64,000 nt of DNA from Betaproteobacteria bacterium (GTDB taxonomy: Bacteria; Pseudomonadota; Gammaproteobacteria; Burkholderiales; JAEUOS01): the NCBI GenBank assembly GCA_028292405.1, contig JAQGMJ010000049.1, forward strand, positions 257,353 to 321,352. The letters are read 5' to 3'. Position numbers and translations under genes: made by a program. The notes under the pieces were generated by a model that saw nothing but the letters and a program-made list of their open reading frames with translations, had not been told where the DNA came from and searched no databases. Below are positions 5,430 to 35,989 of the stretch, in pieces. Each line of letters opens with the position of its first letter. Position 1 is the stretch's first letter.

Positions 5430-7061
5430 TCAAGGAAAGCTCACTGTCAGCGACAGGTCGGTCTCCACCACCTTGTTCGACTGCGGCACGCCGAAGGAGG
5501 ACAGCGGGTCCTTGTGCCCGATGGTGCGTGAGAGCACCAGCGAAATGCCTTTCTGGAACGGCAGCGGGAAGGTGGCGCCGAACTCCAGCAGCGAACCGGA
5601 ATAGCGGCTTACCCATTGCTGGTCGGCATAGAAGGTCATCTTGCTGATCGCCGCAGGGCAGCTATAGAGCTCCGAGATCAGCCCGCAAGGGTAACCGTGG
5701 AAGTCCAGGCGCCCGAAGGTGTAGTCGCGCGGCACCGAGTACACCTGGTTGCCCTGCAGTTCGGACGAGGTCGGCGCGCCGTTGCCGTATTGCCGCTGCG
5801 CCTGCGCGCCGCCGGTCAGGCCCGCGTACAGGTAGTAGCCGCCCTTGACCTTGTAGGGAAAGGGCACGAACCAGGTGTAGCTGGCGTTGGCGAAATGGTA
5901 GTAGAGGTTCTGGTTGTACAGCCGGTTCTGGATCACCCCGGCACGATAGGTGCTGGTCAGCCATGTCACCGTGTCGCGTCCGACCTCGGCGGCGGCTTCG
6001 GGCACGAAGGGCGCGAAGTAGGGCATCAGGTCGATGCTCGAGGTCCAGCCGATGCCGCCGGAAAAGAACTGCGGATTGCCTGGTCCCTTGGGGCCGATGT
6101 TGCCGTTGACGAAGGCGAAGGGGTGGCCGCTTGGCAGATGGTCGCGCTTGAAGTCGTTCGGCATCATCCGCAGCTCGCCGCGAAAGCTCGGCGTATTGAC
6201 GCCATTGCTGTTTTGCGCCGTCAGGCTCACGCCCTGGTTGGCGTTGAGCAGGCTGGTGATGTAGGCGGGAATGTGGATCGGCTCGTCGGCGCTGTAGGTG
6301 TCCGGCGCCACTGGGCTGGTGGTCGACAGCGCCTGGATGGTGAAGGGCAGGGAATAGTCCCGCTCCGCCGGGTTGGCGTCTTTCTTGGCGAGCAGCGGCA
6401 CCACGTGGTCGCCGCAGTCGTGCAGGCGGCCGAACTCGTACTTGTTCGGGTTCAGCGCCTTTTGCAAGTCCGCGGGCATGCCGGGGTGCAGCAGTTGGTA
6501 GGGCGCGTTGCCGCAGTAATCGGTGGCATAGACGTCGCCGCCTCCCAGTTGCACCGCTTGCAGCGTCAGGCGCACCACCTCGGCATTGCCGCTGTCGGCC
6601 GCCGCGCTCAGCACCGTCTCGCCGCGCGAGCGATGGTCGTGCGAGCCGTCCAGGGCCAGCTTGTCGATCGGCACGCGGTCGCAGATCGGCGGATTGTTCT
6701 CGCCGCTCTTGGCCAGCTGGATCAGCTTGAACGCCAGCTCGTTGAGCTCCGTCTTGCCGGCACCGGGCCGGGCGGCGGCGTAAACGGCATCGACCGCCTC
6801 CTGGATCGCCCGGGTGGCGGTCTTCTCGCCTTCGCCCACCGGTATGGCGCAAGCCGATACCGGCCTTGGCGGCGGCGCGGGCTTGCCGGCCGTGGGCTCC
6901 GGGCCGGGCTTTTGCGCCGCTCCGGTGGCAGGGGCGGCAGCATCGGCCGCGGCCCGCGAAGGCACGCTGGCTGGCGGCGGCGGGTCGGCGCCCCAGCCGG
7001 CCGGAGGTGCCGCCAGAAGCAGGCCGGCAGTGAACAAAAGAGTTGCGGTTCCGATTCTCAT
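5430..7061 (-). CDS. Secreted hypothetical protein (signal peptide, Pro/Ala-rich linker, aromatic beta-rich C-terminal half)
   Basis: 543-aa ORF. N-terminus 'MRIGTATLLFTAGLLLAAPPAGWGA' is signal-peptide-like. The C-terminal about 250 aa is rich in alternating aromatic/polar residues. No recognisable catalytic motif. Confidence 0.6.
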   Translation of the reverse strand: MRIGTATLLFTAGLLLAAPPAGWGADPPPPASVPSRAAADAAAPATGAAQKPGPEPTAGKPAPPPRPVSACAIPVGEGEKTATRAIQEAVDAVYAAARPGAGKTELNELAFKLIQLAKSGENNPPICDRVPIDKLALDGSHDHRSRGETVLSAAADSGNAEVVRLTLQAVQLGGGDVYATDYCGNAPYQLLHPGMPADLQKALNPNKYEFGRLHDCGDHVVPLLAKKDANPAERDYSLPFTIQALSTTSPVAPDTYSADEPIHIPAYITSLLNANQGVSLTAQNSNGVNTPSFRGELRMMPNDFKRDHLPSGHPFAFVNGNIGPKGPGNPQFFSGGIGWTSSIDLMPYFAPFVPEAAAEVGRDTVTWLTSTYRAGVIQNRLYNQNLYYHFANASYTWFVPFPYKVKGGYYLYAGLTGGAQAQRQYGNGAPTSSELQGNQVYSVPRDYTFGRLDFHGYPCGLISELYSCPAAISKMTFYADQQWVSRYSGSLLEFGATFPLPFQKGISLVLSRTIGHKDPLSSFGVPQSNKVVETDLSLTVSFP

Positions 7062-8268: not shown

Positions 8269-10695
8269 TTAGGCCCGCAATCTCGCCCCGTGCTTATTCG
8301 TTGCGGCGGCGACCAGAATTTCCCTGGTTTCGTCGGCTTCGGCGTCGGTGAGCGTTTTTTTAGTATCTTGCATAACTACCCGGAATGCAAGGCTTTTTTC
8401 CGTTTCCGACAGGCCTGCAGCGGCATTTGTGGGGCGGTATTCGTCGAACAGGGAGATGCCGGTAACCACACCCGGCGCGGCTGCCTGTAAGGTTTTCAAA
8501 ATCGCCGCCGCTGCCAGGCCGGCGGGTACCACCAAGGCCAGATCGCGGATGATCGGCGGGAACTTGGAGACCTCGGCGTAGCACGGCTGGGCGCGCAAAA
8601 GTACGGGCGCGGCCTCGATTTCAAACAGCACCGGCGCCGCCGGCAGGCCGTATTCCTTGACCCAGCGCGGGTGCAGCTCGCCGATGTGGCCGATCACCCG
8701 GCCGTCGAGGCGGATGGCGGCGCAGCGGCCCGGGTGCAGGGCAGGGTGGGCGCTGGCGATGAACTCCGGCTCCCAGGGCGCGATGACTGCTTCCAGGTCG
8801 CCCTTGACGTCGAAGTAGTCCACCGGGCGCGCCTTCGCGCCCCATTGCTCCTCGTACGCGGTGCCGAAGGCGACGGCGCCGAGCATGCGCGGCTGGGCGT
8901 AGCCGGCGACCTGCAGCGGGCCGTCCTGCACGCTGGCGTCGCGCTTGAACACGGGGCCAAGCTCGAACACGCGCACGCGCGGCTCGCGGCGGTTCAGGTT
9001 GTAGGCGACGTTGGCGATGAGGGAGCCGAAGAGGGACGAGCGCATCACCCCCATCTGGCTGGCGATCGGGTTGAGCAGCTTGATCGGCGCTTCGTTGCCG
9101 GCCAGCTCGCGTTCCCACTTCTCATCGACGAAGGAAAAGTTGATCACCTCCTGGTAGTCGCGTGCGGCTGCCAGTTCCTTCAGCGTGGTCAGGCTGATGC
9201 CGTCTTCGCGGCTTTGCATCATCTCCGCGCGCGCCAGCGGCGGGGCGGCCGGGATGTTCTCGAAGCCGTGGATGCGCGCCACTTCCTCGATCAGGTCTTC
9301 CTCGATCTCGATGTCGAAGCGGTAGGAGGGCGCGGTCACCGTGAAGGCATCGGCGGTTCGGGTTTGCTCGAACCCGAGGCGCGTGAAGGTGGCGGCCATC
9401 TCGTCGGCGGAGATTTGCTTACCGATGATCTTCACGCAGCGCGCGATGCGCATGGTCACCGGCTTGCGTACCGGCAGCTTCGCCACGGTATCGACCGTCG
9501 GCCCGGCCTGGCCGCCGCAGATGTCGAGGATCAGGCGCGTCGCGCGCTCGATGCCGTCGACGTTGTTGTTGAAGTCTACGCCGCGCTCGAAGCGGTGCGA
9601 GGCGTCGGAGGTGAAATTGAACCTGCGCGCGCGGCCCTGGATGGCGAGCGGATAGAAGAACGCGCTTTCCAGGTAGACGTTGGTGGTGGTGAGTTCGGCC
9701 TTGGTGCTGTCGCCGCCCATGATGCCGGCCAGGCCGATCGGCCCGGAGGCATCGGTGATCGCCAGCACGGTCTCGTCCAGTTCCACCGTCTGCTCGTTGA
9801 GCAGCTTGAGCTTCTCGCCCTTGCGGCCGAAGCGCACGTCGATACCGCCTTGCAGCTTGTCGAGGTCATAGACGTGCAACGGACGGCCCAGTTCCAGCAT
9901 CACGTAGTTGGTGACGTCTACCAGCGCGGAGATGGAGCGCTGGCCGGAGCGCGCCAGGCGCTCGACCATCCACGCCGGGGTCGGCGCCTTCGCGTTCACG
10001 CCCTTGATCACTCGGCCGGTGAAGCGGCCGCAGCCATCGGCGTCCGTGATCTTTGCGGTGAACTTGTCGTCCATCGTCGGCTGCACCGCCGGCACCGCCA
10101 GCGGCTGGAACGGCGCGCTGGTGATGGCCGCGACATCGCGCGCCACGCCCAGCACCGAGAGGGCATCGGCACGATTCGGCGTCAGCTTGATGGTGAAGAG
10201 GGTGTCGTCGAGGTTCAGCACCTCGCGCACATTGGTGCCAGGCACCGCATCGGCGGGCAGGGGCAGCAGGCCGCTGTGGTCGTCCGACATACCCAGTTCG
10301 CGCGCCGAGCACAGCATGCCTTCGGACTCGACGCCGCGCATTTTCGCGCGCTTGATCTCAAAGGGTTTGCCGTCCGCTTTGTCGTCACCCGCCGGAGGCA
10401 GTTGCGCGCCGATCAGCGCGCACGGCACCTTCATCCCGGCGGCCACGTTGGGCGCGCCGCAGACGATGTTTAGCAGATGGTCCTGCCCCGCGTCCACCTG
10501 ACAGACGTTGAGCCGGTCCGCGTTCGGATGCTTTTCAAACGACTTGATCTCGCCCACCACGATGCCGGTGAACGCCGGCGCCGCGGCCTCGGTCTCCTCG
10601 ACCTCGAGGCCGGACATGGTGAGCGTATGCGCCAGCTCGGCAGAAGAGAGCGGCGGGTTGACGAAGCTGCGTAGCCAGGATTCGGGAAATTTCAT
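8269..10695 (-). CDS. pheT: Phenylalanine--tRNA ligase beta subunit
   Basis: 808 aa. 'MKFPESWLRSFVNP' N-terminus with tRNA-binding, B3/4, B5 and FDX-ACB-like regions. Follows pheS. Confidence 0.95.
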   Translation of the reverse strand: MKFPESWLRSFVNPPLSSAELAHTLTMSGLEVEETEAAAPAFTGIVVGEIKSFEKHPNADRLNVCQVDAGQDHLLNIVCGAPNVAAGMKVPCALIGAQLPPAGDDKADGKPFEIKRAKMRGVESEGMLCSARELGMSDDHSGLLPLPADAVPGTNVREVLNLDDTLFTIKLTPNRADALSVLGVARDVAAITSAPFQPLAVPAVQPTMDDKFTAKITDADGCGRFTGRVIKGVNAKAPTPAWMVERLARSGQRSISALVDVTNYVMLELGRPLHVYDLDKLQGGIDVRFGRKGEKLKLLNEQTVELDETVLAITDASGPIGLAGIMGGDSTKAELTTTNVYLESAFFYPLAIQGRARRFNFTSDASHRFERGVDFNNNVDGIERATRLILDICGGQAGPTVDTVAKLPVRKPVTMRIARCVKIIGKQISADEMAATFTRLGFEQTRTADAFTVTAPSYRFDIEIEEDLIEEVARIHGFENIPAAPPLARAEMMQSREDGISLTTLKELAAARDYQEVINFSFVDEKWERELAGNEAPIKLLNPIASQMGVMRSSLFGSLIANVAYNLNRREPRVRVFELGPVFKRDASVQDGPLQVAGYAQPRMLGAVAFGTAYEEQWGAKARPVDYFDVKGDLEAVIAPWEPEFIASAHPALHPGRCAAIRLDGRVIGHIGELHPRWVKEYGLPAAPVLFEIEAAPVLLRAQPCYAEVSKFPPIIRDLALVVPAGLAAAAILKTLQAAAPGVVTGISLFDEYRPTNAAAGLSETEKSLAFRVVMQDTKKTLTDAEADETREILVAAATNKHGARLRA

Positions 10696-13475: not shown

Positions 13476-15383
13476 TTACGCTCTGCGCGCCACTTCATCG
13501 CTAAGACGCTCGATCAAGGTGGTGAGGGGCATGGAACCTAAGTCCACATTACCCCGGGCCCGGACGGCCACCGTGCCTGCTGCCACCTCCTTGTCGCCTA
13601 CGACAATTTGGTAAGGCACCTTCTGCAGACTATGTTCGCGTATTTTAAACGAAATCTTGTCCGGGCGCAAATCCGAATCCACCCTAAATCCCTGTTTTTT
13701 TAGGGATTGTTGTACCTCGGCAGCATAATCAGCCTGATGCTCCGTGATTGGCATCACCACCGCATGCACCGGCGCCAGCCACAAAGGCAGCGCCCCCGCG
13801 TGGTTTTCCAGCAAAATCCCGATAAACCGCTCCAGCGATCCCACAATCGCCCGGTGCAGCATCACCGGCGTCTTGCGCGTGTTATCCGCCGCCACATACT
13901 CAGCGCCCAGCCGCTCCGGCATATTCGGGTCCACCTGCATGGTCCCGCACTGCCACACCCGCCCCAGCGCATCCTTCAGCGAATATTCGATCTTCGGCCC
14001 GTAAAAAGCGCCTTCTCCCTTCAACTCCTGCCATTCCACGCCGGAAGCATTCAGCGCATCCGCCAGCGCCTTCTCCGCCTTGTCCCAGCTCTCCTCCGAC
14101 CCGATGCGGTTCACCGGCCGCGTCGAAAGCTTGTAAATCACCTCCGTAAAGCCGAAATCCGTATACACCTTCTGCAGCAGCCGCGTAAACGCCAGGCACT
14201 CCTTCTGTATATCGTCCTCGGTACAGAAAATATGCCCATCGTCCTGCGTAAACCCGCGCACCCGCATGATCCCGTGCAGCGAACCCGACGACTCATTCCG
14301 GTGGCAAGACCCAAACTCGCCATAACGCAGCGGCAAATCCCGGTACGAACGCAGCCCCGCGTTGAACACCTGAATATGCCCCGGGCAATTCATCGGCTTC
14401 ACCGCATAGTCACGGTTCTCCGAAGACGTCGTGAACATATTCTCCTTGTAGTTCTCCCAGTGGCCGGAACGCTCCCACAAATGCTTGTCCAGGATCATCG
14501 GGCACTTGATCTCCTGGTACCCATTCTCCCGGTACACCGTGCGCATGTACTGCTCCACCTGCTGCCACACCGTCCACCCCTTCGGGTGCCAGAAAACCAT
14601 CCCCGGCGCCTCCTCCTGCAGGTGAAACAGATCCAGCTGCTTGCCCAGCTTGCGGTGGTCGCGCTTCTCCGCCTCCTCCAGCATATGCAGGTACTGCTCC
14701 AGGTCCTCCTTCTTCGCCCACGCCGTACCGTAAATGCGCTGGAGCATCTCGTTCTTCGAATCCCCGCGCCAATAAGCCCCCGCCAGCTTCATCAGCTTGA
14801 AAAAGCGCAGCTTGCCGGTGGAGGGCACATGCGGCCCCCGGCACAGGTCAATGAAATTCCCCTCCCGGTAAAGCCCGATCTCCTGATCCGCCGGAATCGA
14901 AGAAATAATCTCCGCCTTGTACTTCTCGCCGATCCCGTTAAAAAACGCCACCGCCTCATCGCGCCCCATCACCTCGCGCGTCACCTTCTCATCCTTCTTC
15001 GCCAGCTCCCCCATCTTCTTCTCGATCGCCGCCAAATCCTCCGGCGTAAACGGCCGCTTATACGAAAAATCGTAAAAAAACCCGTTCTCGATCACCGGCC
15101 CAATCGTCACCTGCGCATCCGGAAACAACTCCTTCACCGCATACGCCAACAGGTGCGCCGTCGAGTGCCGGATCATATCCAGCCCCTCCGCATCCTTATC
15201 CGTAATGATCGCAAGCGTTGCGTCATGGTCGATAGCGAAAGACGTATCCACCATCTTCCCATCCACCTTCCCCCCCAGCGCCGCCTTCGCCAACCCCGGC
15301 CCGATAGACGCAGCCACCTCCGCCACCGTCACCGGCTGCTCAAACGAACGCTTGGAACCATCAGGCAACTGCACCGAAACCAT
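13476..15383 (-). CDS. thrS: Threonine--tRNA ligase
   Basis: '[14 protein letters not shown]' TGS N-terminus, editing domain 'HSTAHLLA', class II motifs ('FRLSGEF'-like '[12 protein letters not shown]', '[10 protein letters not shown]', 'GTMQVD'), anticodon-binding C-terminus. Start at the internal ATG 15383. Confidence 0.93.
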
Positions 15384-15396
15384 AATTTTCTCTCTC

Positions 15397-15433
15397 AAAA
15401 AGCAAAAAGGCGCGGGACTCGAAGCCCCACGCC
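15397..15433 (-). promoter_or_regulatory. Terminator-like hairpin in the thrS 5' leader (attenuator candidate)
   Basis: Minus-strand GGCGUGGGG-cuucgag-UCCCGCGCC (9 bp including 2 G-U pairs) followed by UUUUUGCUUUUU. The U-run ends 13 nt before the thrS ATG. Confidence 0.5.
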
Positions 15434-15835
15434 TTTGACCAAATACCAACCTTGAGGCGAACGCGGGCCTTAGCTAAAAACTCCCTGCGTCCGGCTAGTT
15501 CGCGGTGTCATAACGCTCACCTTTCAATGGGTATCGGCTGATGCGGTTAAACGGATGTTGCGGATCCCAAAGAAATACAGCACTGGATCAACATATTAAC
15601 AAGAACGCGGGCGGGGCGCCAGAGCGACAGGACGATGGCATAGAACGGGGGCATATATGCATAAGCAACACTTTAGTCTTATTGTTTTTCAAGGCACATC
15701 AGCGCAAAGTAAGGAGTTGGAAAAAATCGATTTGCAACGAAGTCGCTATCGTTCTTCATGCGACCGGGCCATGCAGCTTGATAACTAGATACGTTCCAAC
15801 AAGATAGCTATTGTTTTAGCTAAAAGGGGAGAGTT

Positions 15836-16687
15836 ATGGAAAAAGAAAAATTTTGGAATTTCACCTTGTGGGATCTAGTAAAAGCAATCTCGACCCTCGT
15901 TGTCGTAGGTGTGGCGTCATACAAATTATTCGCAATGCCGGCTTCTCTTAATATGGATTTTCCGACCCTCCTATCGCTCTTGTTAGCCTTGTTTTCCGTA
16001 GCGCTGTCCGCACTTTTTTACTTCAAGGCGACAGACACAAGCAATGCTTTTTACGACAATACCTACAAATTTACAAAGGATATTGCAGAGTTATTGGTAA
16101 AGATTGAAAGCGGTTTCGGCGAGCGATTGAGGCACCTTGATGAAGGATATTCATCGATGCGAAACTATTTTCAGAATGTTCCCCCAAAACAAGCCGATGA
16201 CGTAGAGAGAACCAAAAAGAAGTTAGAGAATGAAGAGCAGGAAGTTGAAAAGGTTTTAATCGAGCGAAACGCAATAATCCAACAACTTGTTGAAAAATCC
16301 CAGCTACAGCAAGAGGAGAAAAGCCGCGTTCTTGATCAGTTAAGGGCCAAAGAAGAAGAACTAGCTAAGCTGCAAAATGAGGTAAATCGGCTTACTAGGC
16401 GGGTTGTTGTTGAAAAAATGAATAAGAAATCTGGGGCTGAAAGATTTGGTCTTCTACCTTCGTCGCTTGCCGACTATACGGCTGAAAAAGTTGTTCAGAA
16501 GATGGGAGGTCGAGAGGTCGCGGACTTATCCCTGGCTGAGCTTCGACACAGATTCACAAGCCTGATTAATGAACTACCGCGAGGCTATCTTCGAGATCTA
16601 GAGAGCCACGACCTATTTGACGACGGGTTAACGCCAGCCGGCGTTCGATTTGTCAGAGACCTAGCGGCAGGCCGCGGCACTCCGTAG
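15836..16687 (+). CDS. Hypothetical membrane-anchored coiled-coil protein (low-GC island)
   Basis: ATG follows AAAGGGGAGAG. Two N-terminal hydrophobic helices ('AISTLVVVGVASYKLFAM', 'LLSLLLALFSVALSALFYF'). Central E/K/Q-rich heptad-like region. AT-rich codon usage unlike the flanks. Confidence 0.6.
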   Translation: MEKEKFWNFTLWDLVKAISTLVVVGVASYKLFAMPASLNMDFPTLLSLLLALFSVALSALFYFKATDTSNAFYDNTYKFTKDIAELLVKIESGFGERLRHLDEGYSSMRNYFQNVPPKQADDVERTKKKLENEEQEVEKVLIERNAIIQQLVEKSQLQQEEKSRVLDQLRAKEEELAKLQNEVNRLTRRVVVEKMNKKSGAERFGLLPSSLADYTAEKVVQKMGGREVADLSLAELRHRFTSLINELPRGYLRDLESHDLFDDGLTPAGVRFVRDLAAGRGTP

Positions 16688-16711
16688 AGTCGCGCTGCTA
16701 GTTCTAGAAGT

Positions 16712-16725
16712 AAATAAAAGGTTCC
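16712..16725. repeat. Left copy of the 14-bp direct repeat AAATAAAAGGTTCC flanking the retron cassette
   Basis: Identical 14-mer at 18878..18891, with further imperfect similarity downstream (ACTAATCGT / ACTAATTCGT). Confidence 0.6.
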
Positions 16726-16775
16726 TATTACGCTTAGCTCAGGGACTAATCGTTGTTCAGTTAAGCGGATGTCGG

Positions 16776-17729
16776 CTAAATTGTTGGCGCGCCATTGTTG
16801 GTCGGTGGTGATCGCAAAAGAGCAGTCACTTGATTCGAGTCCAGGCGGCGGTAGACCAGATCTAAGACCGTCGGATCCACCGATCTAGCAAACGAAAGCA
16901 ATCCCTTCAGGCGTTCGACTTCTTGGGCAGACAATTTCCCTCTTGCAAAATGGTCAATCATGGCTCGTAATTGACGACGTCGATCGTGCCCAATCGAGAC
17001 CCTACCTTCGTTCGCCAGCGTTAAGCCAGTGAGTGTTCGATTAAATTTCTTCGAGACATTTACCGTTTTTGCGCTATTAAATTCGAGCCTTGGGTAGGCC
17101 ACGCTCTGGCAAAGCAAACGAATGTCTGAATGCAAGTTGTTCAGAGCATTGGGAATACTCGAAGAAAATGCTAGGTCATCCGCGTAGCGCGTATAGAGCG
17201 CTCCACGCTCTCTACATATTTCGGTAGCGCCCAAGTCGAAATCGAACATCAGCGAGTTTGATACTGCTGGAGAGCTAGGAGCCCCAATCGATAACCGGTA
17301 ATCGTCATCTTTTCTATCGCGTTTGAAAAGTATCTGCCTCAATATCCATAAATCATGTTCTGTGTATTGAGGCAAATATTTTTCTGCATGAGCGTTGAGG
17401 TCTGAGAATTTCAGCGATGGGAAAAAGTCTTTGAAATCCAGCTTAAGAAGATATTTATTGGCCGCATGAGGACGCGCATGACGCACGATTGATGCGCCTC
17501 GCCGATACGCTGTAGCCGCATCATGCAGAGGCCAGTCCACGACTGCAGTTGATACAGCCCAACGTTGCAGCATTTTCACTTCGCTTGTGGGCTGAGATAT
17601 AACGCGAGTACCACCCCTTCTCTTGGCAATTTCGTGAGTCTTATAGCGAGTCGGGGCTGTCAATAGCAATAGCTGTAACTCACCGGAACTAAAGGGCAAG
17701 TCTTGTAGCATTCTGAGAAATAAGCTCAT
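16776..17729 (-). CDS. Retron-type reverse transcriptase
   Basis: RT motifs 'LLKLDFKDFFPS', 'SIGAPSSPAVSN', catalytic 'YADDLAFS', retron-like 'RTLTGLTL' (VTG-type motif). About 317 aa with no maturase or endonuclease domain. The ATG lies 2 nt after the upstream effector stop. Confidence 0.85.
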   Translation of the reverse strand: MSLFLRMLQDLPFSSGELQLLLLTAPTRYKTHEIAKRRGGTRVISQPTSEVKMLQRWAVSTAVVDWPLHDAATAYRRGASIVRHARPHAANKYLLKLDFKDFFPSLKFSDLNAHAEKYLPQYTEHDLWILRQILFKRDRKDDDYRLSIGAPSSPAVSNSLMFDFDLGATEICRERGALYTRYADDLAFSSSIPNALNNLHSDIRLLCQSVAYPRLEFNSAKTVNVSKKFNRTLTGLTLANEGRVSIGHDRRRQLRAMIDHFARGKLSAQEVERLKGLLSFARSVDPTVLDLVYRRLDSNQVTALLRSPPTNNGAPTI

Positions 17730-17731
17730 GG

Positions 17732-18667
17732 CTATGCCCTAATAGCCCCGAACTTTGCCAACTGATACGCGTCGTATCGCTGTTTCTCACTTACAACGAG
17801 ATCGAAGGTGGTGCCCTTAAAGCGAAGGCGATCAAAAGGGTCATGGCCAGCCAACGCTGTGTGATCAACATACGGTTCGGCTAATCTAGAGACGTAATAT
17901 TTCGCTGGACCTCGCCTCTGTTCTTTCAGCAACTGAAACAGTAACAGTTGATTCAGTATTTGCTTTAAGCGCTCCTCAGTAAGCCTGACACCATAGTGGG
18001 CGAGTAAAAGTATCAGTTCAGCTTTAGTTATGACATTAAATAGATCCACCAAATCCGCGACTAAAAGTAGCTGATCGCGCGGCAGCTTGGGATCAAAGTG
18101 TTCTTTTTTTGGGGCCGAATCAACACGTGCTTCAAGAGCGCCAATTACCATCTCGACGTCCGGCGCAAAGTCCTCGACTTTCGGTCCGTGCACCGTGCAA
18201 ACGGACTCATCGGCGATTTGTTCCAGCCGACGAAGAGGACCTAACGAAATGTAAGAGATTTTTGGGTGATAGTTGTGCGCGACTATCGCCACGGTCTTAA
18301 AACGGAGCACGTCGTCAGCCGCGAACATCCCGAGTTCTGCGAGCGCACCAGATGTCTCGCAGAAAATCATCACAGCGCGTGAGAGATACCCGACGTCTCT
18401 CTCGAATTCAAGCAAGTCGGGATAACCTTCGAATCTATTCCATTCCCCGTAGTGTTCTGGGAAACGAACCCAGTCCTTAAATCGATGATTTTTTTCGATT
18501 AACGTTTCAAGGAACAGATTTCTCTGAGATATATGTTTCTTCTCAGGAGCGATACTGAGTGGGCCGCCAAACACGAGAATGAATGGCGGCCCCGAGATTA
18601 TTTTCGCAGTAGCAGGGTCGACGCTTGCAATGAATTGTTGTATTGCGTCACGAAGCACGGCACTCAA
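17732..18667 (-). CDS. Putative retron effector, nucleoside 2-deoxyribosyltransferase-like (RcaT/St85-effector-like) with a helical C-terminal domain
   Basis: 'PPFILVFGGP' (beta1-GG) and 'IFCETSGALAELGMFA' resemble NDT-fold motifs. Sits between the ncRNA and the RT, as in Retron-Sen2/St85. Start uncertain (TTG 18667 inside a2, or GTG 18658). Confidence 0.7.
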   Translation of the reverse strand: MSAVLRDAIQQFIASVDPATAKIISGPPFILVFGGPLSIAPEKKHISQRNLFLETLIEKNHRFKDWVRFPEHYGEWNRFEGYPDLLEFERDVGYLSRAVMIFCETSGALAELGMFAADDVLRFKTVAIVAHNYHPKISYISLGPLRRLEQIADESVCTVHGPKVEDFAPDVEMVIGALEARVDSAPKKEHFDPKLPRDQLLLVADLVDLFNVITKAELILLLAHYGVRLTEERLKQILNQLLLFQLLKEQRRGPAKYYVSRLAEPYVDHTALAGHDPFDRLRFKGTTFDLVVSEKQRYDAYQLAKFGAIRA

Positions 18668-18834
18668 TTACCCTTGAATTAGGCACGCAATCGGCCAAAG
18701 ACAATTTCGTGGAGCCTCAGCGGAGCGAAATTGGCTTTGGCCGATTGCGTGCCGTTGATGCAGTCCACCTAAATTCAGTCCGGCGAATCACCAGACAATT
18801 GATAGCCAAAAACGCTACCGAAACGCGTAATTGA
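18663..18834 (-). ncRNA. Retron msr/msd non-coding RNA (predicted)
   Basis: a1 CUCAAUUAC (18834..18826) pairs with a2 GUAAUUGAG (18671..18663). An unpaired G follows a1. Near-perfect 28-bp hairpin (arms 18682..18709 and 18726..18753, 1 mismatch, 16-nt loop). Located right behind a sigma70-like promoter. Confidence 0.65.
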
Positions 18835-18842
18835 GGCGAGTG

Positions 18843-18871
18843 ATTATGAATGCGTTCACATGAGTCGTCAA
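18843..18871 (-). promoter_or_regulatory. Sigma70-like promoter of the retron operon
   Basis: Minus strand TTGACG (18871..18866), 17-nt spacer, CATAAT (18848..18843). The predicted start falls about 7 nt downstream, just before a1. Confidence 0.6.
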
Positions 18872-18877
18872 ATTATC

Positions 18878-18891
18878 AAATAAAAGGTTCC
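18878..18891. repeat. Right copy of the 14-bp direct repeat AAATAAAAGGTTCC
   Basis: Identical to 16712..16725. Lies immediately upstream of the retron promoter -35. Confidence 0.6.
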
Positions 18892-19023
18892 AATCTCGAA
18901 CTAATTCGTGCCTCAAATCAGATCCGTGCTAGTGATAAAGGCTGCACAGCGCCGGCGGAGGCGGAAATGCGCGAGAATCAGGCAAAGCGCGCGCAGCGGT
19001 CCAGCCGTGCGCAGGAGACAATC

Positions 19024-19896
19024 ATGACCGTGGTTTTCAGCCCGCTACACCCCACCTTCGCCGCCGTAGTCGCCCCCATCGACCTGCGCCAGGCCCACGA
19101 CCCCGCCATCCTCGAATCCCTGCAACGCGGCATGGCGCAATACGGCGTGCTGGTGTTCCGCGACCAGCGCTTTACGAATGAGGAGCAGATGGCGTTCGCG
19201 CAGCGCTTCGATGGGGAGTTGCATGCGCGCACTTCCACTGCGGTGCTGGTGAAAAACCGGCATGGCAACGAGGCGTTGTCGGATGTGTCGAACGTCGGGG
19301 CCGATGGGCAGATATTGCCGGGGGAGGATAGGCGGCGCATCGGGGCGCTGGCTAACCGGCTGTGGCATACGGATGCTTCCTTTGTCACGCCGCCCGGCCG
19401 TTTTTCGATGTTGTCGGCGCGGGTGGTGCCGGAGGTAGCGGCCGATACGGAGTTTTGCGATACGCGCGCGGCGTATGCGGCGCTGGATGAGGCCACGCGC
19501 GCGACGCTGGCGCCGCTGCGGGTGCATCACTCCATCGCTTATTCGCGCGAGGTGCTGGGCTTTGTGTTCTCGGCGGAGGAGCGCGAGAAGTTGAAGGGCG
19601 CGGAGCAGCCGCTGATCCGCCGCATCGCGCGCGACCCGCGGCCGGCGCTGTACCTGGCTTCGCATGCGCAGGCCGTCGTCGGCATGCCGCTGGCCGAAGG
19701 CCGCCTGCTGCTGCGCGATTTGATGGAGCACGCCACCCAGCCGCAATTCGTCTACCGGCACCAGTGGCAGGCGCACGATTTCGTCATCTGGGACAACCGT
19801 ACCACCATGCACCGCGCCACCCCGTTTGATGACCGCAAATACCGGCGCGAGTTGGTGCGCACGACTACGCTGGATATCGAACAGGCGCTGCCGTAA
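19024..19896 (+). CDS. TfdA/TauD-family Fe(II)/2-oxoglutarate-dependent dioxygenase
   Basis: 'VLVFRDQ', His-X-Asp 'LWHTDASF', 'FVIWDNRTTMHRA' and the overall TfdA-like sequence. ATG 19024 chosen at the point where GC and codon usage return to host type. Confidence 0.85.
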   Translation: MTVVFSPLHPTFAAVVAPIDLRQAHDPAILESLQRGMAQYGVLVFRDQRFTNEEQMAFAQRFDGELHARTSTAVLVKNRHGNEALSDVSNVGADGQILPGEDRRRIGALANRLWHTDASFVTPPGRFSMLSARVVPEVAADTEFCDTRAAYAALDEATRATLAPLRVHHSIAYSREVLGFVFSAEEREKLKGAEQPLIRRIARDPRPALYLASHAQAVVGMPLAEGRLLLRDLMEHATQPQFVYRHQWQAHDFVIWDNRTTMHRATPFDDRKYRRELVRTTTLDIEQALP

Positions 19897-19909
19897 GCGA
19901 AGGAAGATA

Positions 19910-20494
19910 ATGCCTAAAGAGGTGCCGGATTCAAGCCAAGCTCGAATCCGGGACTTTTCATTTCATGTCGATAAGAGCAAAAAAATGAGCGATCCGGGTC
20001 TTCGTAGACTGCTGTCCGTGTGGGGGCTGTGTGTGGCAGCGTGCGTATTGGCCGCGGCTTGCGCCCATGGTCCTTCGTCACGGACGGATGCAGCGTTGCA
20101 GGTGATGCCGACCCGCACGCCTCTCGATATTTGCGTCAAAACCGAGAAGCAGGGCGATGCAGCAGTGGTTGAGGCGATGAGTCCAAAGGACGATGGCCAG
20201 TTCAAAGTGCATGATTTGGGCGTGCGCACCGCGGACGTACTGTACGAGCATTGGGACGCCATTCCGCAAGGCAGGTGCAAGGTCCGCGATCTTTATCACG
20301 TGGACGCAGGGCTTGGCGGCAACATCAAGCTGATGGTGGTGCGGCAGATCATTTTCGTGATCCGGCAGAAGCGTTCGGGAGACATGAAATGGGAATCCTA
20401 CCGCCTGGGCAAGATTGTGGTGCTCTCGGTGCGCCCTGAGGATACGGCGCAGTTGGAAGCGTTTTTGATGAAGGAGCTCTTCTTCGCTCCATGA
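19910..20494 (+). CDS. Hypothetical lipoprotein
   Basis: Lipobox-like 'VLAAAC' after 'LRRLLSVWGLCVAA'. Start ambiguous: ATG 19910 with AAGGAAG SD, or ATG 19985 which gives a canonical signal peptide. Confidence 0.5.
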   Translation: MPKEVPDSSQARIRDFSFHVDKSKKMSDPGLRRLLSVWGLCVAACVLAAACAHGPSSRTDAALQVMPTRTPLDICVKTEKQGDAAVVEAMSPKDDGQFKVHDLGVRTADVLYEHWDAIPQGRCKVRDLYHVDAGLGGNIKLMVVRQIIFVIRQKRSGDMKWESYRLGKIVVLSVRPEDTAQLEAFLMKELFFAP

Positions 20495-20602
20495 CGCAAG
20501 GCCGGTTTTGCCGTGAGTGGAACACTAGTTGCTTGGTCAGCGTGACGTCGCCGGGACGTGCTGCCGCCTCCGTATAATCTCCCCACTATCCGAGCCTCCC
20601 TC

Positions 20603-21775
20603 ATGACCCTCTTTTCCCTGCGCAGGCTTGCCGCCGGCGGCGCGCTGGCGCTGGCGGCGCTCATCAGTGCCCCGGTCGCGCAAGCGCAGGCCCTGCACCC
20701 GCTCTCGCCGGCGTTTCTCGCGACGCTGAATAACGTCGACACCTCTTCCGATGAGATCGGCGCTTCGGTCATGGCCATCAAGAATGCGGACCTGACGTAT
20801 TCGATGTTCTCCCGCGGCCGCGTCGAGAAGGCCATTGCGAACATGGAGCAGCAGTTGCCGGCGCTGAAGGCGCAAACGGCCAGCCTGCGGCGCGAAGAGT
20901 CCTTGCGGGTGCTGCTGGCCATGCGCACGGCGTTTTCAGATGCGCAGCGCAATATCGGGTCGATCTCCGACATCCTGCACGGCGTCACCGTGCGCACCCC
21001 GGCGCAGGCGGACGCGCTCGACAAGCTGCTGGCGCGGCTCGATAGTGCCACCGCGCAACTGGACGCGGCGCTCAAGCGCTTCGACAGCGGGGCGGTGGCG
21101 CTGACGGCGCGGGCTTCGTCCTCATCTGCCCCTGCCCCTGGCCCTGCCTCCGCCCCCGCCGCCGGGCAAGCGCAGGTGCCGATGTCTCCCGCCTCCGTCC
21201 AGGCACAGGCAGGCGCCTCATCCGCGCAAGCGCAGGCCGCAGCTACCCCCGGGCAGGCAGCGGCATCGTCCGCATCCGGCGCCGCGCAAGCGCCGGGCGC
21301 ATTTGCCTCCGCCCCCGCCTCCACGCAGGCGGCGCTGCGCCCGCTGCCGCCGAACCTTCTCGCCACGCTGAAAGACGTAGACACCTCTTCCGACGAAATG
21401 GCGGCTTCGGTGACGGCGGTGAAGAATGCGGACCTGACGTATTCGCTGTTCTCCCGCGGCCGCGTCGAGAAGGTGATCGCGCGCATGGAGAAGCAGTTGC
21501 CGATGCTCAAGGCGCAGACGGCGGATCTGCGGCGCGATGAGTCGCTGGGCGTGCTGCTGTCGATGCGCACGGCCTTCTCGGAGGTGCAACGCGACGTCGG
21601 CTCGGTCTCCGAAATCCTGCACGGCGTCACCGTGCGCACCCCCGCGCAGGCCGACGAGCTGGACCGCCTGCTCACCCACCTGGACGCCGCCGCCGCCCAC
21701 CTGGACGCGGCGCTCAAACGCTTCGACACCGGCGCCCTGGCGATGATCGAGTTGCTGGACAAGCCCGCCCGCTAG
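20603..21775 (+). CDS. Secreted hypothetical protein with two tandem 138-aa domain copies
   Basis: Signal peptide 'MTLFSLRRLAAGGALALAALISAPVAQAQ'. Repeats at 20690..21103 and 21332..21745 are separated by an A/S/P/Q low-complexity linker. Confidence 0.65.
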   Translation: MTLFSLRRLAAGGALALAALISAPVAQAQALHPLSPAFLATLNNVDTSSDEIGASVMAIKNADLTYSMFSRGRVEKAIANMEQQLPALKAQTASLRREESLRVLLAMRTAFSDAQRNIGSISDILHGVTVRTPAQADALDKLLARLDSATAQLDAALKRFDSGAVALTARASSSSAPAPGPASAPAAGQAQVPMSPASVQAQAGASSAQAQAAATPGQAAASSASGAAQAPGAFASAPASTQAALRPLPPNLLATLKDVDTSSDEMAASVTAVKNADLTYSLFSRGRVEKVIARMEKQLPMLKAQTADLRRDESLGVLLSMRTAFSEVQRDVGSVSEILHGVTVRTPAQADELDRLLTHLDAAAAHLDAALKRFDTGALAMIELLDKPAR

Positions 21776-22721: not shown

Positions 22722-23275
22722 GCTGCGCTGCATGTTCAGGAATTAAAGCAGCCCGGGCAATCCGGCAAGCCGCGACTTTTTCTGTGAAGCCAAGCCGCTG
22801 CCCCATGCAGCCATGACTACAACTGTGTTTATCGGCGAAGGGCGCTGCCCGGCGGATTCGGCAAGCGGCGAATTTTTCTGAAAGATATGGTTTTGTCAGG
22901 TTGGCTTCGCAAGCCGACCACAACTGTGTTCAGGGAGCAAGCTGCCCGGTGGGTTCGGCAAGCAGCGGAATTTCTGAAAAAGATATGGTCCCCAAGGGGA
23001 CTTCGTTGAGGGCGTTTTGTCAGCTTGCGGGTTTGCGCGGTCGACCACAACTGTATTTTCAGGGATGAGGGCTGCCCGGCAGGTTCGGCAAGCAGCGAGT
23101 TTTTCTGAAAAAGATATGGTTTTATCAGGTTGGCTTCGCAAGCCCACCACAACTGTGTTCAGGGAGCAAGCTGCCCGGTGGGTTCGGCGAGCGGCGGAAT
23201 TTCTGAAAGATAGGGTTTCCCAAGGAGACTTCTTTCAGGTCGTTTTATCAGGGCGGCTTGGAGATTTGTTTTTCG
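22722..23275. repeat. Higher-order tandem repeat array (alternating units of about 101 and 127 bp; 4 good copies plus 1 degenerate)
   Basis: The core ACAACTGTG recurs at 22819, 22920, 23047 and 23149 (spacing 101/127/102). Copies 1/3 and 2/4 are most similar to each other, giving a period of about 229 bp. A degenerate copy starts near 22722. Confidence 0.8.
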
Positions 23276-35703: not shown

Positions 35704-35989
35704 TGGCACGACGACGCGGCTCGCCCGGCAAAGGTCAAGCGCGAAGTGGCCAAAGGTCTCGTCTGGCTGGCTGCGACGTTTAAATAAATAAACGCGCGGC
35801 GGGCTGCGCATACCATGGAAGCAAGCTCCCAAGTCTGTTGACATGCGCTCTCCGGGATTAAGCCCCGGAGATGACTACTCCCCAATGAACGGAACGGAGT
35901 TTAGCAGAATCCGCTGCATTCCCGCTTTTTCGTCGGGGTTTCGGCAATGGAATCGACTGGCTCTGCCAGCGATTCCATGCAAATCAGGC

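What the first reader, a model, noticed from the sequence alone, without database searches (positions are those of the whole stretch)
16712..18891. Retron cassette is bracketed by a perfect 14-bp direct repeat (AAATAAAAGGTTCC)
The identical 14-mer occurs at 16712..16725 (50 nt beyond the RT stop) and at 18878..18891 (just upstream of the retron -35). Weaker similarity continues for about 30 nt (ACTAATCGT vs ACTAATTCGT). A 14-mer recurring by chance within 2.2 kb is unlikely. The geometry fits a duplicated target or attachment site, so the retron could be a discrete insertion of about 2.17 kb into an already AT-rich island. No integrase or transposase gene lies within the repeats.
Basis: seen in the sequence. 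Interest (0 to 1): 0.6.

Follow-up and report, generated by a model that had tools for sequence, protein, structure and literature searches.

The report
Short repeat bracketing a retron cassette
A compact anti-phage retron sits between two identical 14-base repeats, which is most likely the scar of its insertion as a small self-contained DNA cassette; this is an ordinary kind of arrangement, and it could not be proven here because no closely related genome is available.

Summary
AAATAAAAGGTTCC occurs exactly twice in the 64-kb window, at 16712 and 18878. The copies enclose 2,152 nt holding one complete type II-A (Sen2/St85-family) retron on the minus strand: promoter, msr/msd RNA, NDT-like effector and reverse transcriptase. 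One copy ends 6 nt from the -35 box. The other lies 50 nt past the RT stop.

A shared 14-mer in the two flanking spacers is very unlikely by chance (14 of 300,000 shuffles). The claimed further 30 nt of similarity is not significant (P about 0.4).

The retron lies in a 3.3-kb low-GC islet upstream of the conserved thrS leader. Its neighbour, a 283-aa gene, is an integron cassette gene elsewhere and never accompanies related retrons.

No empty site could be found. The nearest retron RT is 56% identical, and the nearest genomes (ThrS 92%) carry different cargo at this position.

Some related retron loci do show repeat-bounded islets without an integrase, one of them inserted within rarA.

Best reading: a recombination scar, an att-like core, from insertion of a discrete retron cassette by a recombinase acting in trans. 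This is plausible but unproven. It is a new member of a known kind and of modest interest.

The parts
16712..16725 (.). Left copy of the 14-bp direct repeat AAATAAAAGGTTCC. It lies 25 nt after the stop of the 283-aa gene and 50 nt after the RT stop.
18878..18891 (.). Right copy of the 14-bp direct repeat, 6 nt upstream of the retron -35 hexamer.
16726..16775 (-). 3' spacer of the retron unit. It contains a weak imperfect hairpin (16732-16768). No canonical intrinsic terminator was detected.
16776..17729 (-). Retron reverse transcriptase, 317 aa, St85/Sen2 family (type II-A).
   Evidence: RVT_1; PADLOC RT_II-A, 9.6e-107; NF038233, 312 bits against a cutoff of 235
17732..18667 (-). Retron effector, NDT-like, STM3845/RcaT family. 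It is 311 aa from the TTG start; a gene caller used the GTG at 18658, giving 308 aa. The TTG start overlaps the a2 repeat.
   Evidence: NDT_II-A, 4.5e-66; NF038232, 178.8 bits against a cutoff of 100
18663..18834 (-). Retron non-coding RNA (msr-msd). It runs from a1 TCAATTAC (18834-18827) to a2 GGTAATTGAG (18672-18663). The msd stem arms are 18682-18709 and 18726-18753.
   Evidence: family-wide conservation; compensatory changes in the msd stem
18843..18871 (-). Sigma-70-type promoter of the retron: TTGACG, 17-nt spacer, CATAAT.
   Evidence: -10 boxes at the same position in related loci
18892..18940 (.). Low-GC (0.41) tail of the islet beyond the right repeat. Host-like GC (0.69) resumes at 18941.
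15836..16687 (+). Neighbouring 283-aa gene of unknown function. It is foreign (GC3 0.45) and intact to its C-terminus. It is an integron cassette gene in other organisms and not part of the retron.
15384..15641 (-). Conserved thrS leader. It is native DNA and marks the left limit of the islet. It includes a terminator-like hairpin at 15406-15436.

Best explanation
The two 14-bp copies are the left and right junctions (attL/attR-like, sharing a 14-17 bp core) left when a self-contained cassette of about 2.15 kb recombined into the 3' flank of an older foreign gene. The cassette is a type II-A retron: promoter, msr/msd RNA, NDT-like effector and RT. The whole lies in a small islet upstream of the thrS leader.

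The cassette has no recombinase of its own. I infer that a circular or excised form was integrated by a site-specific recombinase supplied in trans, or one since lost. This is how integrase-less, att-flanked 'cis-mobilizable' elements behave.

Shown: the repeat, its non-random position, the completeness and compactness of the enclosed retron, the foreign nature of the islet, and the independence of the neighbouring gene.

Inferred: that the repeat arose by insertion, that the event was site-specific, and that it could be reversed to leave a single copy.
For: - The exact 14-mer occurs only at the two spacers flanking the retron. A shared 14-mer or longer arose in 14 of 300,000 shuffles. In the cross-locus null it arose once in 1,482 pairs.
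- The repeats enclose exactly one complete retron, with only 6 nt between the repeat and the -35 box.
- The motif is not a conserved retron promoter element. Family conservation starts at the -10/a1 region, and nothing upstream aligns.
- The neighbouring 283-aa gene never accompanies related retrons (0 of 80 loci). It is a separate mobile gene, an integron cassette elsewhere.
- About 49 nt of islet-type composition lie outside the right copy.
- Precedents among related type II-A loci:
  - L094/L095: a low-GC retron element without an integrase, inserted in rarA. It carries its own 5' rarA and has an 8-bp crossover, TTCAACAA.
  - L083: a perfect 48-bp repeat of the tRNA-Met 3' end enclosing an ATPase and a retron, with no integrase.
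  - L127/L128: a 113-bp repeat enclosing a retron and a methylase.
- Literature:
  - A 2.2-kb St85-like retron unit with repeats drawn upstream and downstream, and a proposed two-step insertion (PMC11701397).
  - The 18-bp att core of SGI1, next to the Salmonella retron (PMC2297512).
  - Integrase-less att-flanked elements are a catalogued element class, cis-mobilizable elements or CIMEs (PMC6323972).
Against: - No empty site or circular junction has been observed.
- No cognate recombinase was found in the islet, within about 10 kb, or among the strongest Pfam matches of 64 window ORFs.
- The motif flanks no other retron, is absent from the relatives, and its viral matches are chance.
- Similarity does not extend beyond 17 nt.
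- The reconstructed attB and attP show no special structure.
- GC3 cannot separate the retron (0.47-0.50) from the 283-aa gene (0.45), so joint arrival is not excluded.
- Only 3-4 of about 40 surveyed loci show convincing flanking repeats.
Confidence: 0.4

Rival explanations
1. Recombinase-independent illegitimate recombination. A circular or linear retron-bearing fragment joined the islet through a fortuitous 14-bp microhomology (short-homology-dependent integration). This leaves the homology duplicated at both junctions.
For: The geometry is the same as in the best explanation. There is no recombinase nearby. There is no recombinase-site-like symmetry or structure around the core. Identity stops abruptly at 14-17 nt.
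Against: By established knowledge, 14 identical bases is at the long end for microhomology joins. The related L094 element carries a 118-codon replacement of its target gene, which points to dedicated site-specific integration in this retron family.
Confidence: 0.2
2. The 283-aa gene and the retron arrived together as one 3.3-kb islet, for example by homologous exchange at the variable thrS-upstream hotspot. The repeat is then a relic of an unrelated, older duplication in the donor.
For: GC3 is similar in the two parts. The region upstream of the thrS leader differs in every relative, which marks it as a hotspot. No repeat marks the outer islet ends.
Against: This does not explain why the copies fall exactly at the two ends of the retron transcription unit. 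The 283-aa gene is not linked to retrons elsewhere.
Confidence: 0.1
3. Chance. An AT-rich 14-mer happens to recur, and it was picked out after the fact in a window that has many 14-mer repeats.
For: The window has 103 maximal direct repeats of 14 nt or more. Any repeat of 14 nt or more within the islet arises in 1.7% of shuffles. The L105 15-mer 'bracket' looks like chance, because it lies 230 nt inside a GC-rich host gene. The extended similarity is not significant.
Against: Restricted to the two flanking spacers, the probability is about 5e-5. It is the only AT-rich repeat of this kind in the islet.
Confidence: 0.12
4. Functional duplicate. The T-rich strand (GGAACCTTTTATTT) serves as an UP-like element before the retron promoter and as a U-tract or insulator after the RT. 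Alternatively, both copies bind one regulator.
For: The right copy occupies the UP-element position, just upstream of -35. On the retron strand, the left copy follows a weak hairpin after the RT stop.
Against: There is no such motif upstream of the promoter in 15 related retrons. No terminator was called at the left copy, and 12 nt separate the hairpin from the T-run. Function would not require 14 of 14 identity.
Confidence: 0.08
5. Target-site duplication made by a transposase.
For: Direct repeats flank a discrete segment.
Against: There are no terminal inverted repeats inside the copies (sequence). There is no transposase in the unit or nearby. By established knowledge of IS families, 14 bp is unusually long.
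Confidence: 0.04
6. Decayed integron array. The two copies are remnants of similar attC sites bounding an inverted retron cassette next to the 283-aa cassette.
For: Close homologues of the 283-aa gene are true integron cassettes with attC sites. An R'-like GTTAAGC lies at 16760, with GGTTAAC 141 nt upstream.
Against: The flanks fold no better than shuffled DNA (z between -1.3 and +1.0), whereas a real attC gives z = -3.3. There is no GTTRRRY at the right end. No attC-like pair passed the structural scan, although that scan is insensitive. No intI was found in the window.
Confidence: 0.04

Closest known systems
Retron-Sen2 (St85) / retron-Eco1 (Ec86) / retron-Vmi1: type II-A retrons with an RcaT/NDT-like effector
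   Same: The RT and effector pass the NCBIfam St85-family cutoffs and the best PADLOC models are RT_II-A and NDT_II-A. The ncRNA has an a1/a2 pair, two msr hairpins and a long msd stem. The order is ncRNA, effector, RT, in a compact unit of about 2.2 kb, as described for Vmi1 (PMC11701397).
   Different: The RT is only 56% identical or less to any known sequence. The host is an uncultured betaproteobacterium. The genomic carrier also differs. Ec86 rides in a P2-like prophage hotspot. Sen2 lies downstream of thdF, beside the SGI1 primary attB site (PMC2297512). Vmi1 lies in a dusA island with two integrases (PMC11701397). Here there is no phage or integrase context.
Integrase-less att-flanked elements (cis-mobilizable elements, CIMEs) and small integrative islands with short att cores
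   Same: A short direct repeat lies at both ends of a cargo-only segment with no recombinase inside. The core length of 14-17 bp is in the range of tyrosine-integrase cores, for example the 18 bp of SGI1 (PMC2297512). CIMEs are a catalogued element class (PMC6323972).
   Different: No cognate integrase, attB occupancy in relatives or excision is known here. The site is intergenic inside another foreign gene's flank, not a tRNA or gene end.
Related metagenomic retron islets (L094/L095 in rarA; L083 at tRNA-Met; L127/L128)
   Same: The retron family and ncRNA are the same. Each is a small repeat-bounded unit without an integrase. The topology matches L094: the host-side copy lies upstream of the retron and the element-side copy lies after the RT.
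   Different: Those repeats are long (48-113 bp) or are duplicated gene fragments that restore the target gene. The window has only 14-17 bp and no duplicated gene fragment.

Membership tests
Type II-A retron (Sen2/St85 family) | Retron-clade reverse transcriptase | tested here: met
   NF038233 at 312 bits against a cutoff of 235. PADLOC RT_II-A at 9.6e-107.
Type II-A retron (Sen2/St85 family) | NDT-like (STM3845/RcaT) effector encoded between the ncRNA and the RT | tested here: met
   NF038232 at 178.8 bits against a cutoff of 100. PADLOC NDT_II-A at 4.5e-66. Gene order.
Type II-A retron (Sen2/St85 family) | msr-msd ncRNA with an a1/a2 inverted repeat and an msd stem | tested here: met
   The 12-sequence alignment has an invariant 8-bp a1/a2 pair and an msd stem with compensatory changes in 8 pairs. 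The 28-nt stem arms were found.
Type II-A retron (Sen2/St85 family) | msDNA synthesis and anti-phage activity | not testable with these tools
   This needs an experiment.
Transposon target-site duplication | Terminal inverted repeats just inside the duplication, and a transposase | tested here: not met
   The inner ends tattacgcttag... and ...gtcgtcaaattatc are not inverted copies of one another. No transposase family was hit.
Integrase-mediated genomic island (attL/attR) | Direct repeats at both ends of the inserted segment | tested here: met
Integrase-mediated genomic island (attL/attR) | Integrase gene within the element | tested here: not met
   Only the RT and the NDT effector lie between the repeats.
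Integrase-mediated genomic island (attL/attR) | An unoccupied site with a single repeat copy in related genomes | tested here: inconclusive
   The nearest genomes (ThrS 90-92%) have other cargo and neither flank. The TauD scan found at most 72% identity and no synteny.
Cis-mobilizable element (CIME-like) | att-like repeats flanking cargo, with no recombination or transfer genes | tested here: met
   Anatomy.
Cis-mobilizable element (CIME-like) | Excision or integration by a cognate integrase supplied in trans | not testable with these tools
   There is no integrase in the 64-kb window among the strong Pfam matches. The rest of the genome was not available.
Integron gene cassette | attC site (R''/L''...L'/R', folding as a hairpin) at the cassette end; IntI nearby | tested here: not met
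   The flanks fold like shuffled DNA. The control attC gives z = -3.3. There is no R' at the right end. The heuristic scan was negative but insensitive.

The most novel reading that the evidence does not exclude
Minimal type II-A retron cassettes may form a recurrent class of integrase-less defence modules. Each would consist of nothing but the retron plus a short att-like core or a target-mimicking arm. They would be shuttled between genomic sites by recombinases acting in trans. Candidate examples are the window, L094 in rarA, L083 at tRNA-Met and L127.
Probability: 0.22. Interest if true: 0.55.

Novelty: new member of a known kind. Interest (0 to 1): 0.3.

Why it matters
How retrons spread is poorly documented. 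They have no mobility genes of their own, yet they are patchily distributed. If confirmed, a 2.15-kb retron bounded by a 14-bp core would be one of the smallest mobile defence units. It would suggest that retrons hitch-hike on recombinases encoded elsewhere. As it stands, the locus adds a divergent Sen2-family retron from an uncultured betaproteobacterium and a plausible, unproven insertion scar. The practical value is a concrete pair of junction sequences that can be searched for in reads or tested by PCR.

Tried and rejected
1. Empty-site search.
- Exact-protein look-ups of the RT, TauD and ThrS found only the same Logan contig, which is 100% identical to window 14636-20808.
- The genome scan with TauD gave at most 72% identity and no thrS synteny.
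- ThrS relatives at 90-92% identity carry different cargo upstream of the conserved leader.

2. Same motif at other retrons. It is absent from 80 related retron loci and from all other fetched loci, even with 1 mismatch. The 25 viral matches to the 17-mer equal the rough chance expectation for a pattern of that length and share no flanks.

3. attC or integron origin. This was rejected on folding and motif grounds.

4. Third repeat copy or repeats at the outer islet ends. None was found.

5. Extended 30-nt similarity. It is not significant.

6. Reconstructed attB and attP. Neither shows notable structure.

7. The L105 15-mer bracket. It was judged chance, because it lies inside a GC-rich host gene away from the GC boundary.

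8. E. coli as a model.
- The St85-like ncRNA has no match in 5,426 genomes.
- Ec86 is cargo in a P2-like prophage hotspot and is not repeat-bounded.

9. The 88-aa ORF at 15541-15807. It overlaps the conserved thrS leader, was not called by the gene caller and has no family hits, so it is probably not a gene.
Full report
**The observation**

The 14-mer AAATAAAAGGTTCC is present at 16712-16725 and 18878-18891. It occurs nowhere else in the 64-kb window on either strand, even allowing one mismatch. The identity extends to 17 nt with one mismatch.

The segment between the copies (16726-18877, 2,152 nt) lies on the minus strand and holds, in order:
- a sigma-70-type promoter, TTGACG-17-CATAAT, at 18871-18843;
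- a retron ncRNA at 18834-18663;
- an NDT-like effector at 18667-17732;
- a reverse transcriptase at 17729-16776.

The right copy ends 6 nt before the -35 hexamer. The left copy begins 50 nt after the RT stop. An independent Logan assembly of the same locus is 100% identical over window 14636-20808, so the sequence is not an assembly quirk of one pipeline.

**What the enclosed element is**

The RT scores 312 bits against NCBIfam 'retron St85 family RT' (cutoff 235). The upstream protein scores 178.8 bits against 'retron St85 family effector' (cutoff 100). PADLOC gives RT_II-A (9.6e-107) and NDT_II-A (4.5e-66).

I aligned the region upstream of the effector with 11-15 related loci. Conservation starts exactly at a1 (TCAATTAC, followed by GCG) and ends at a2 (GGTAATTGA). 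The a1/a2 helix is invariant over 8 bp. There are two msr hairpins and a long msd stem whose base pairs show compensatory changes. This is a complete, compact type II-A (Sen2/St85/Ec86-type) retron.

**Is the repeat more than chance?**

A 14-mer repeat is not unusual in this GC-rich window. There are 103 maximal direct repeats of 14 nt or more, nearly all GC-rich. Position is what matters.
- Shuffling the two spacers that flank the retron (88 nt and 189 nt) gave a shared 14-mer or longer in 14 of 300,000 trials. The analytic expectation is 4.6e-5.
- Any repeat of 14 nt or more anywhere in the islet arose in 1.7% of shuffles.
- In the cross-locus null, pairing the upstream flank of one retron with the downstream flank of another reached 14 nt once in 1,482 pairs.

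Alignment of the sequences to the right of the cores scores no better than shuffles (P about 0.4), and the same holds to the left. Only the 14-17-nt core is real.

**Surroundings**

GC falls from about 0.6-0.7 to 0.42-0.52 between roughly 15,500 and 18,940. Alignment with four relatives (ThrS 90-92% identical) shows that window 15384 to about 15530 is a conserved thrS leader. With one relative the conservation reaches 15641. The foreign islet therefore spans about 15645-18940. The 88-aa ORF at 15541-15807 is probably spurious.

GC3 is 0.75-0.83 in thrS, infC and the TauD-family gene. It is 0.45 in the 283-aa gene, 0.47 in the RT and 0.50 in the effector. Both parts of the islet are therefore foreign, and they cannot be told apart by composition.

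The 49 nt to the right of the right copy (18892-18940) are still islet-like (GC 0.41). Host-like GC (0.69) then resumes.

No recombinase was found in the islet, among ORFs within about 10 kb to the right, or among the strongest Pfam families of 64 long ORFs of the window. Those ORFs are housekeeping genes such as pheST, ligA, smc, uvrC and relA.

**The neighbouring 283-aa gene**

It has more than 1,000 homologues of 52-69% identity scattered over Beta- and Gammaproteobacteria. Its closest homologues lie in unmistakable integron cassette arrays. These are same-strand small ORFs in variable combinations, separated by attC sites such as GCATAAC...GTTATGC. The gene is intact to its C-terminus.

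None of 80 related retron loci has a homologue nearby. It is therefore an independent mobile gene and not a retron component.

This raised the idea that the repeats are decayed attC sites. That idea fails on four counts:
- The flanks fold as single strands no better than shuffled DNA (z between -1.3 and +1.0), whereas a real attC gave z = -3.3.
- The right end has no GTTRRRY core.
- A heuristic R''/R' scan found nothing that folds, although it is insensitive.
- No IntI was found in the window.

The decisive comparison, an empty site, is not available.
- Exact-sequence look-ups return only the same contig.
- The nearest retron RT in 5.8 billion proteins is 56% identical. The nearest in JGI metagenomes is 54%.
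- A genome scan with the TauD-family protein found at most 72% identity and no thrS linkage.
- The four closest ThrS relatives each carry different genes upstream of the leader. This marks a variable hotspot, and none has the 283-aa gene, the retron or TauD there.
- The motif is absent from all retron loci, 283-aa-gene loci and relatives.
- The 25 viral-contig matches to the 17-mer match the rough chance expectation for a pattern of that length and share no flanking similarity.

**Do related retrons sit in repeat-bounded units?**

I compared the upstream and downstream flanks of each related locus.

Within tight flanks (650 nt upstream, 450 nt downstream; 38 usable loci), the window's 14-mer and a 15-mer in L105 exceed the null. 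The L105 repeat lies 230 nt inside a GC-rich host glycosyltransferase gene, away from the GC boundary, and is probably chance.

With wider flanks, several convincing cases appear.
- **L094/L095.** A low-GC element of about 2.7 kb consists of the retron plus its own promoter and first 118 codons of rarA/mgsA. It is inserted in the host rarA. The host 5' fragment (58% identical at protein level) lies upstream, and the element-borne 5' part is fused in frame to the host 3' part. The crossover lies in TTCAACAA. No integrase is inside.
- **L083.** A perfect 48-bp repeat of the tRNA-Met 3' end encloses an AAA_15 ATPase gene and the retron. No integrase is present, but the contig ends just after the second copy.
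- **L127/L128.** A 113-bp repeat of 84% identity encloses the retron and an Eco57I-like methyltransferase.
- **L136.** A 66-bp repeat is associated with an IS630-like transposase.

In L094 the topology matches the window: the host-side copy is upstream of the retron and the element-side copy is after the RT.

The literature fits this picture. A 2.2-kb St85-like retron in Vibrio mimicus lies in a dusA island, has repeats drawn upstream of its promoter and downstream of its RT, and was proposed to have inserted in two steps (PMC11701397). The Salmonella retron lies downstream of thdF, beside the SGI1 primary attB site, where SGI1 uses an 18-bp att core (PMC2297512). Integrase-less att-flanked elements are a catalogued element class, cis-mobilizable elements or CIMEs (PMC6323972).

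Ec86, by contrast, is cargo in a P2-like prophage hotspot in 48 of 5,426 E. coli genomes and is not repeat-bounded.

**Mechanism**

The best-supported reading is that the two copies are junctions of a recombination event. That event placed a self-contained retron cassette into the 3' flank of the older 283-aa gene.
- A transposase-made duplication is unlikely. There are no terminal inverted repeats, there is no transposase, and 14 bp is unusually long.
- RecA-dependent homologous recombination is unlikely on 14-17 bp (established knowledge).
- A core of this length is typical for tyrosine-integrase att sites.

I therefore favour site-specific integration by a recombinase supplied in trans or since lost (confidence about 0.4).

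The rivals are:
- microhomology-driven illegitimate integration (0.2);
- chance (0.12);
- joint arrival of the islet, with the repeat as an older relic (0.1);
- a functional duplicate, UP-like before the promoter and T-tract after the RT (0.08). The motif's absence upstream of 15 related retron promoters argues against this;
- transposon target duplication (0.04);
- decayed attC (0.04).

The repeat, its position and the anatomy are shown. The insertion event, its direction and the recombinase are inferred.

**Verdict**

The extended similarity is not.

The locus is a new, divergent member of a known kind: a type II-A retron in a small foreign islet with an att-like repeat. Interest is modest. 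It would rise if integrase-less minimal retron cassettes proved to be a recurrent, trans-mobilised class.

Noticed in passing
window 15836-16687; L167, L172, L173-L180: The 283-aa neighbour belongs to a family of more than 1,000 members. Its N-terminal part of about 110 aa is almost invariant and probably membrane-associated, and it is followed by a coiled coil. Its close homologues are true integron gene cassettes flanked by attC sites. Function is unknown.
   Followed up: partly
window 15384-15641 (minus strand): The thrS leader is conserved across relatives with ThrS 90-92% identical. A strong terminator-like hairpin (15436-15406) and a T-run lie just upstream of the thrS start. This could be an attenuator. 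No Rfam family matched.
   Followed up: partly
L181-L184, upstream of thrS: The DNA immediately upstream of the conserved thrS leader carries different, mostly uncharacterised genes in every relative. This points to a variable integration hotspot.
   Followed up: partly
L094 4408-7459 (also L095): A related retron element without an integrase is inserted in rarA/mgsA. It brings its own low-GC promoter and first 118 codons of rarA, which are fused in frame to the host 3' part. The crossover is at TTCAACAA, in the HRFNK-coding stretch.
   Followed up: yes
L083 1293-1340 / 5885-5932; L127 4669-4781 / 8857-8969: Two other retron islets are bounded by long direct repeats and have no integrase inside. 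One has a perfect 48-bp repeat of the tRNA-Met 3' end enclosing an AAA_15 ATPase and a retron. The other has a 113-bp repeat enclosing a retron and an Eco57I-like methyltransferase.
   Followed up: partly
window 20738-21701 and 22881-23194: There are tandem duplications. One has a 642-nt period inside ORF 20558-21775, with several perfect blocks of 14-29 nt. The other has a 229/130-nt period and includes a perfect 43-nt copy.
   Followed up: no
window 15545-15557 and 16759-16771: GTTAAACGGATGT and GTTAAGCGGATGT match at 12 of 13 positions (P about 0.01, uncorrected). Both begin with an integron-core-like GTTRRRY. The left copy lies inside the conserved thrS leader, so this is probably chance.
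   Followed up: partly
window 18663-18672: The TTG start of the effector ORF (18667) lies inside the a2 repeat of the ncRNA. A gene caller chose the GTG 9 nt downstream. In related loci the effector starts further from a2.
   Followed up: no
L185 (E. coli BL21, NZ_CP060121.1 841965-854133): Retron Ec86 is present in 48 of 5,426 complete E. coli genomes. It lies in a defective P2-like prophage between a DinI-like gene and the portal gene. Here the ncRNA lies between the effector and the RT.
   Followed up: partly
window 35766-35897 (minus strand): A manganese (yybP-ykoY) riboswitch scores just above the Rfam gathering score (46.1 against 45 bits).
   Followed up: no
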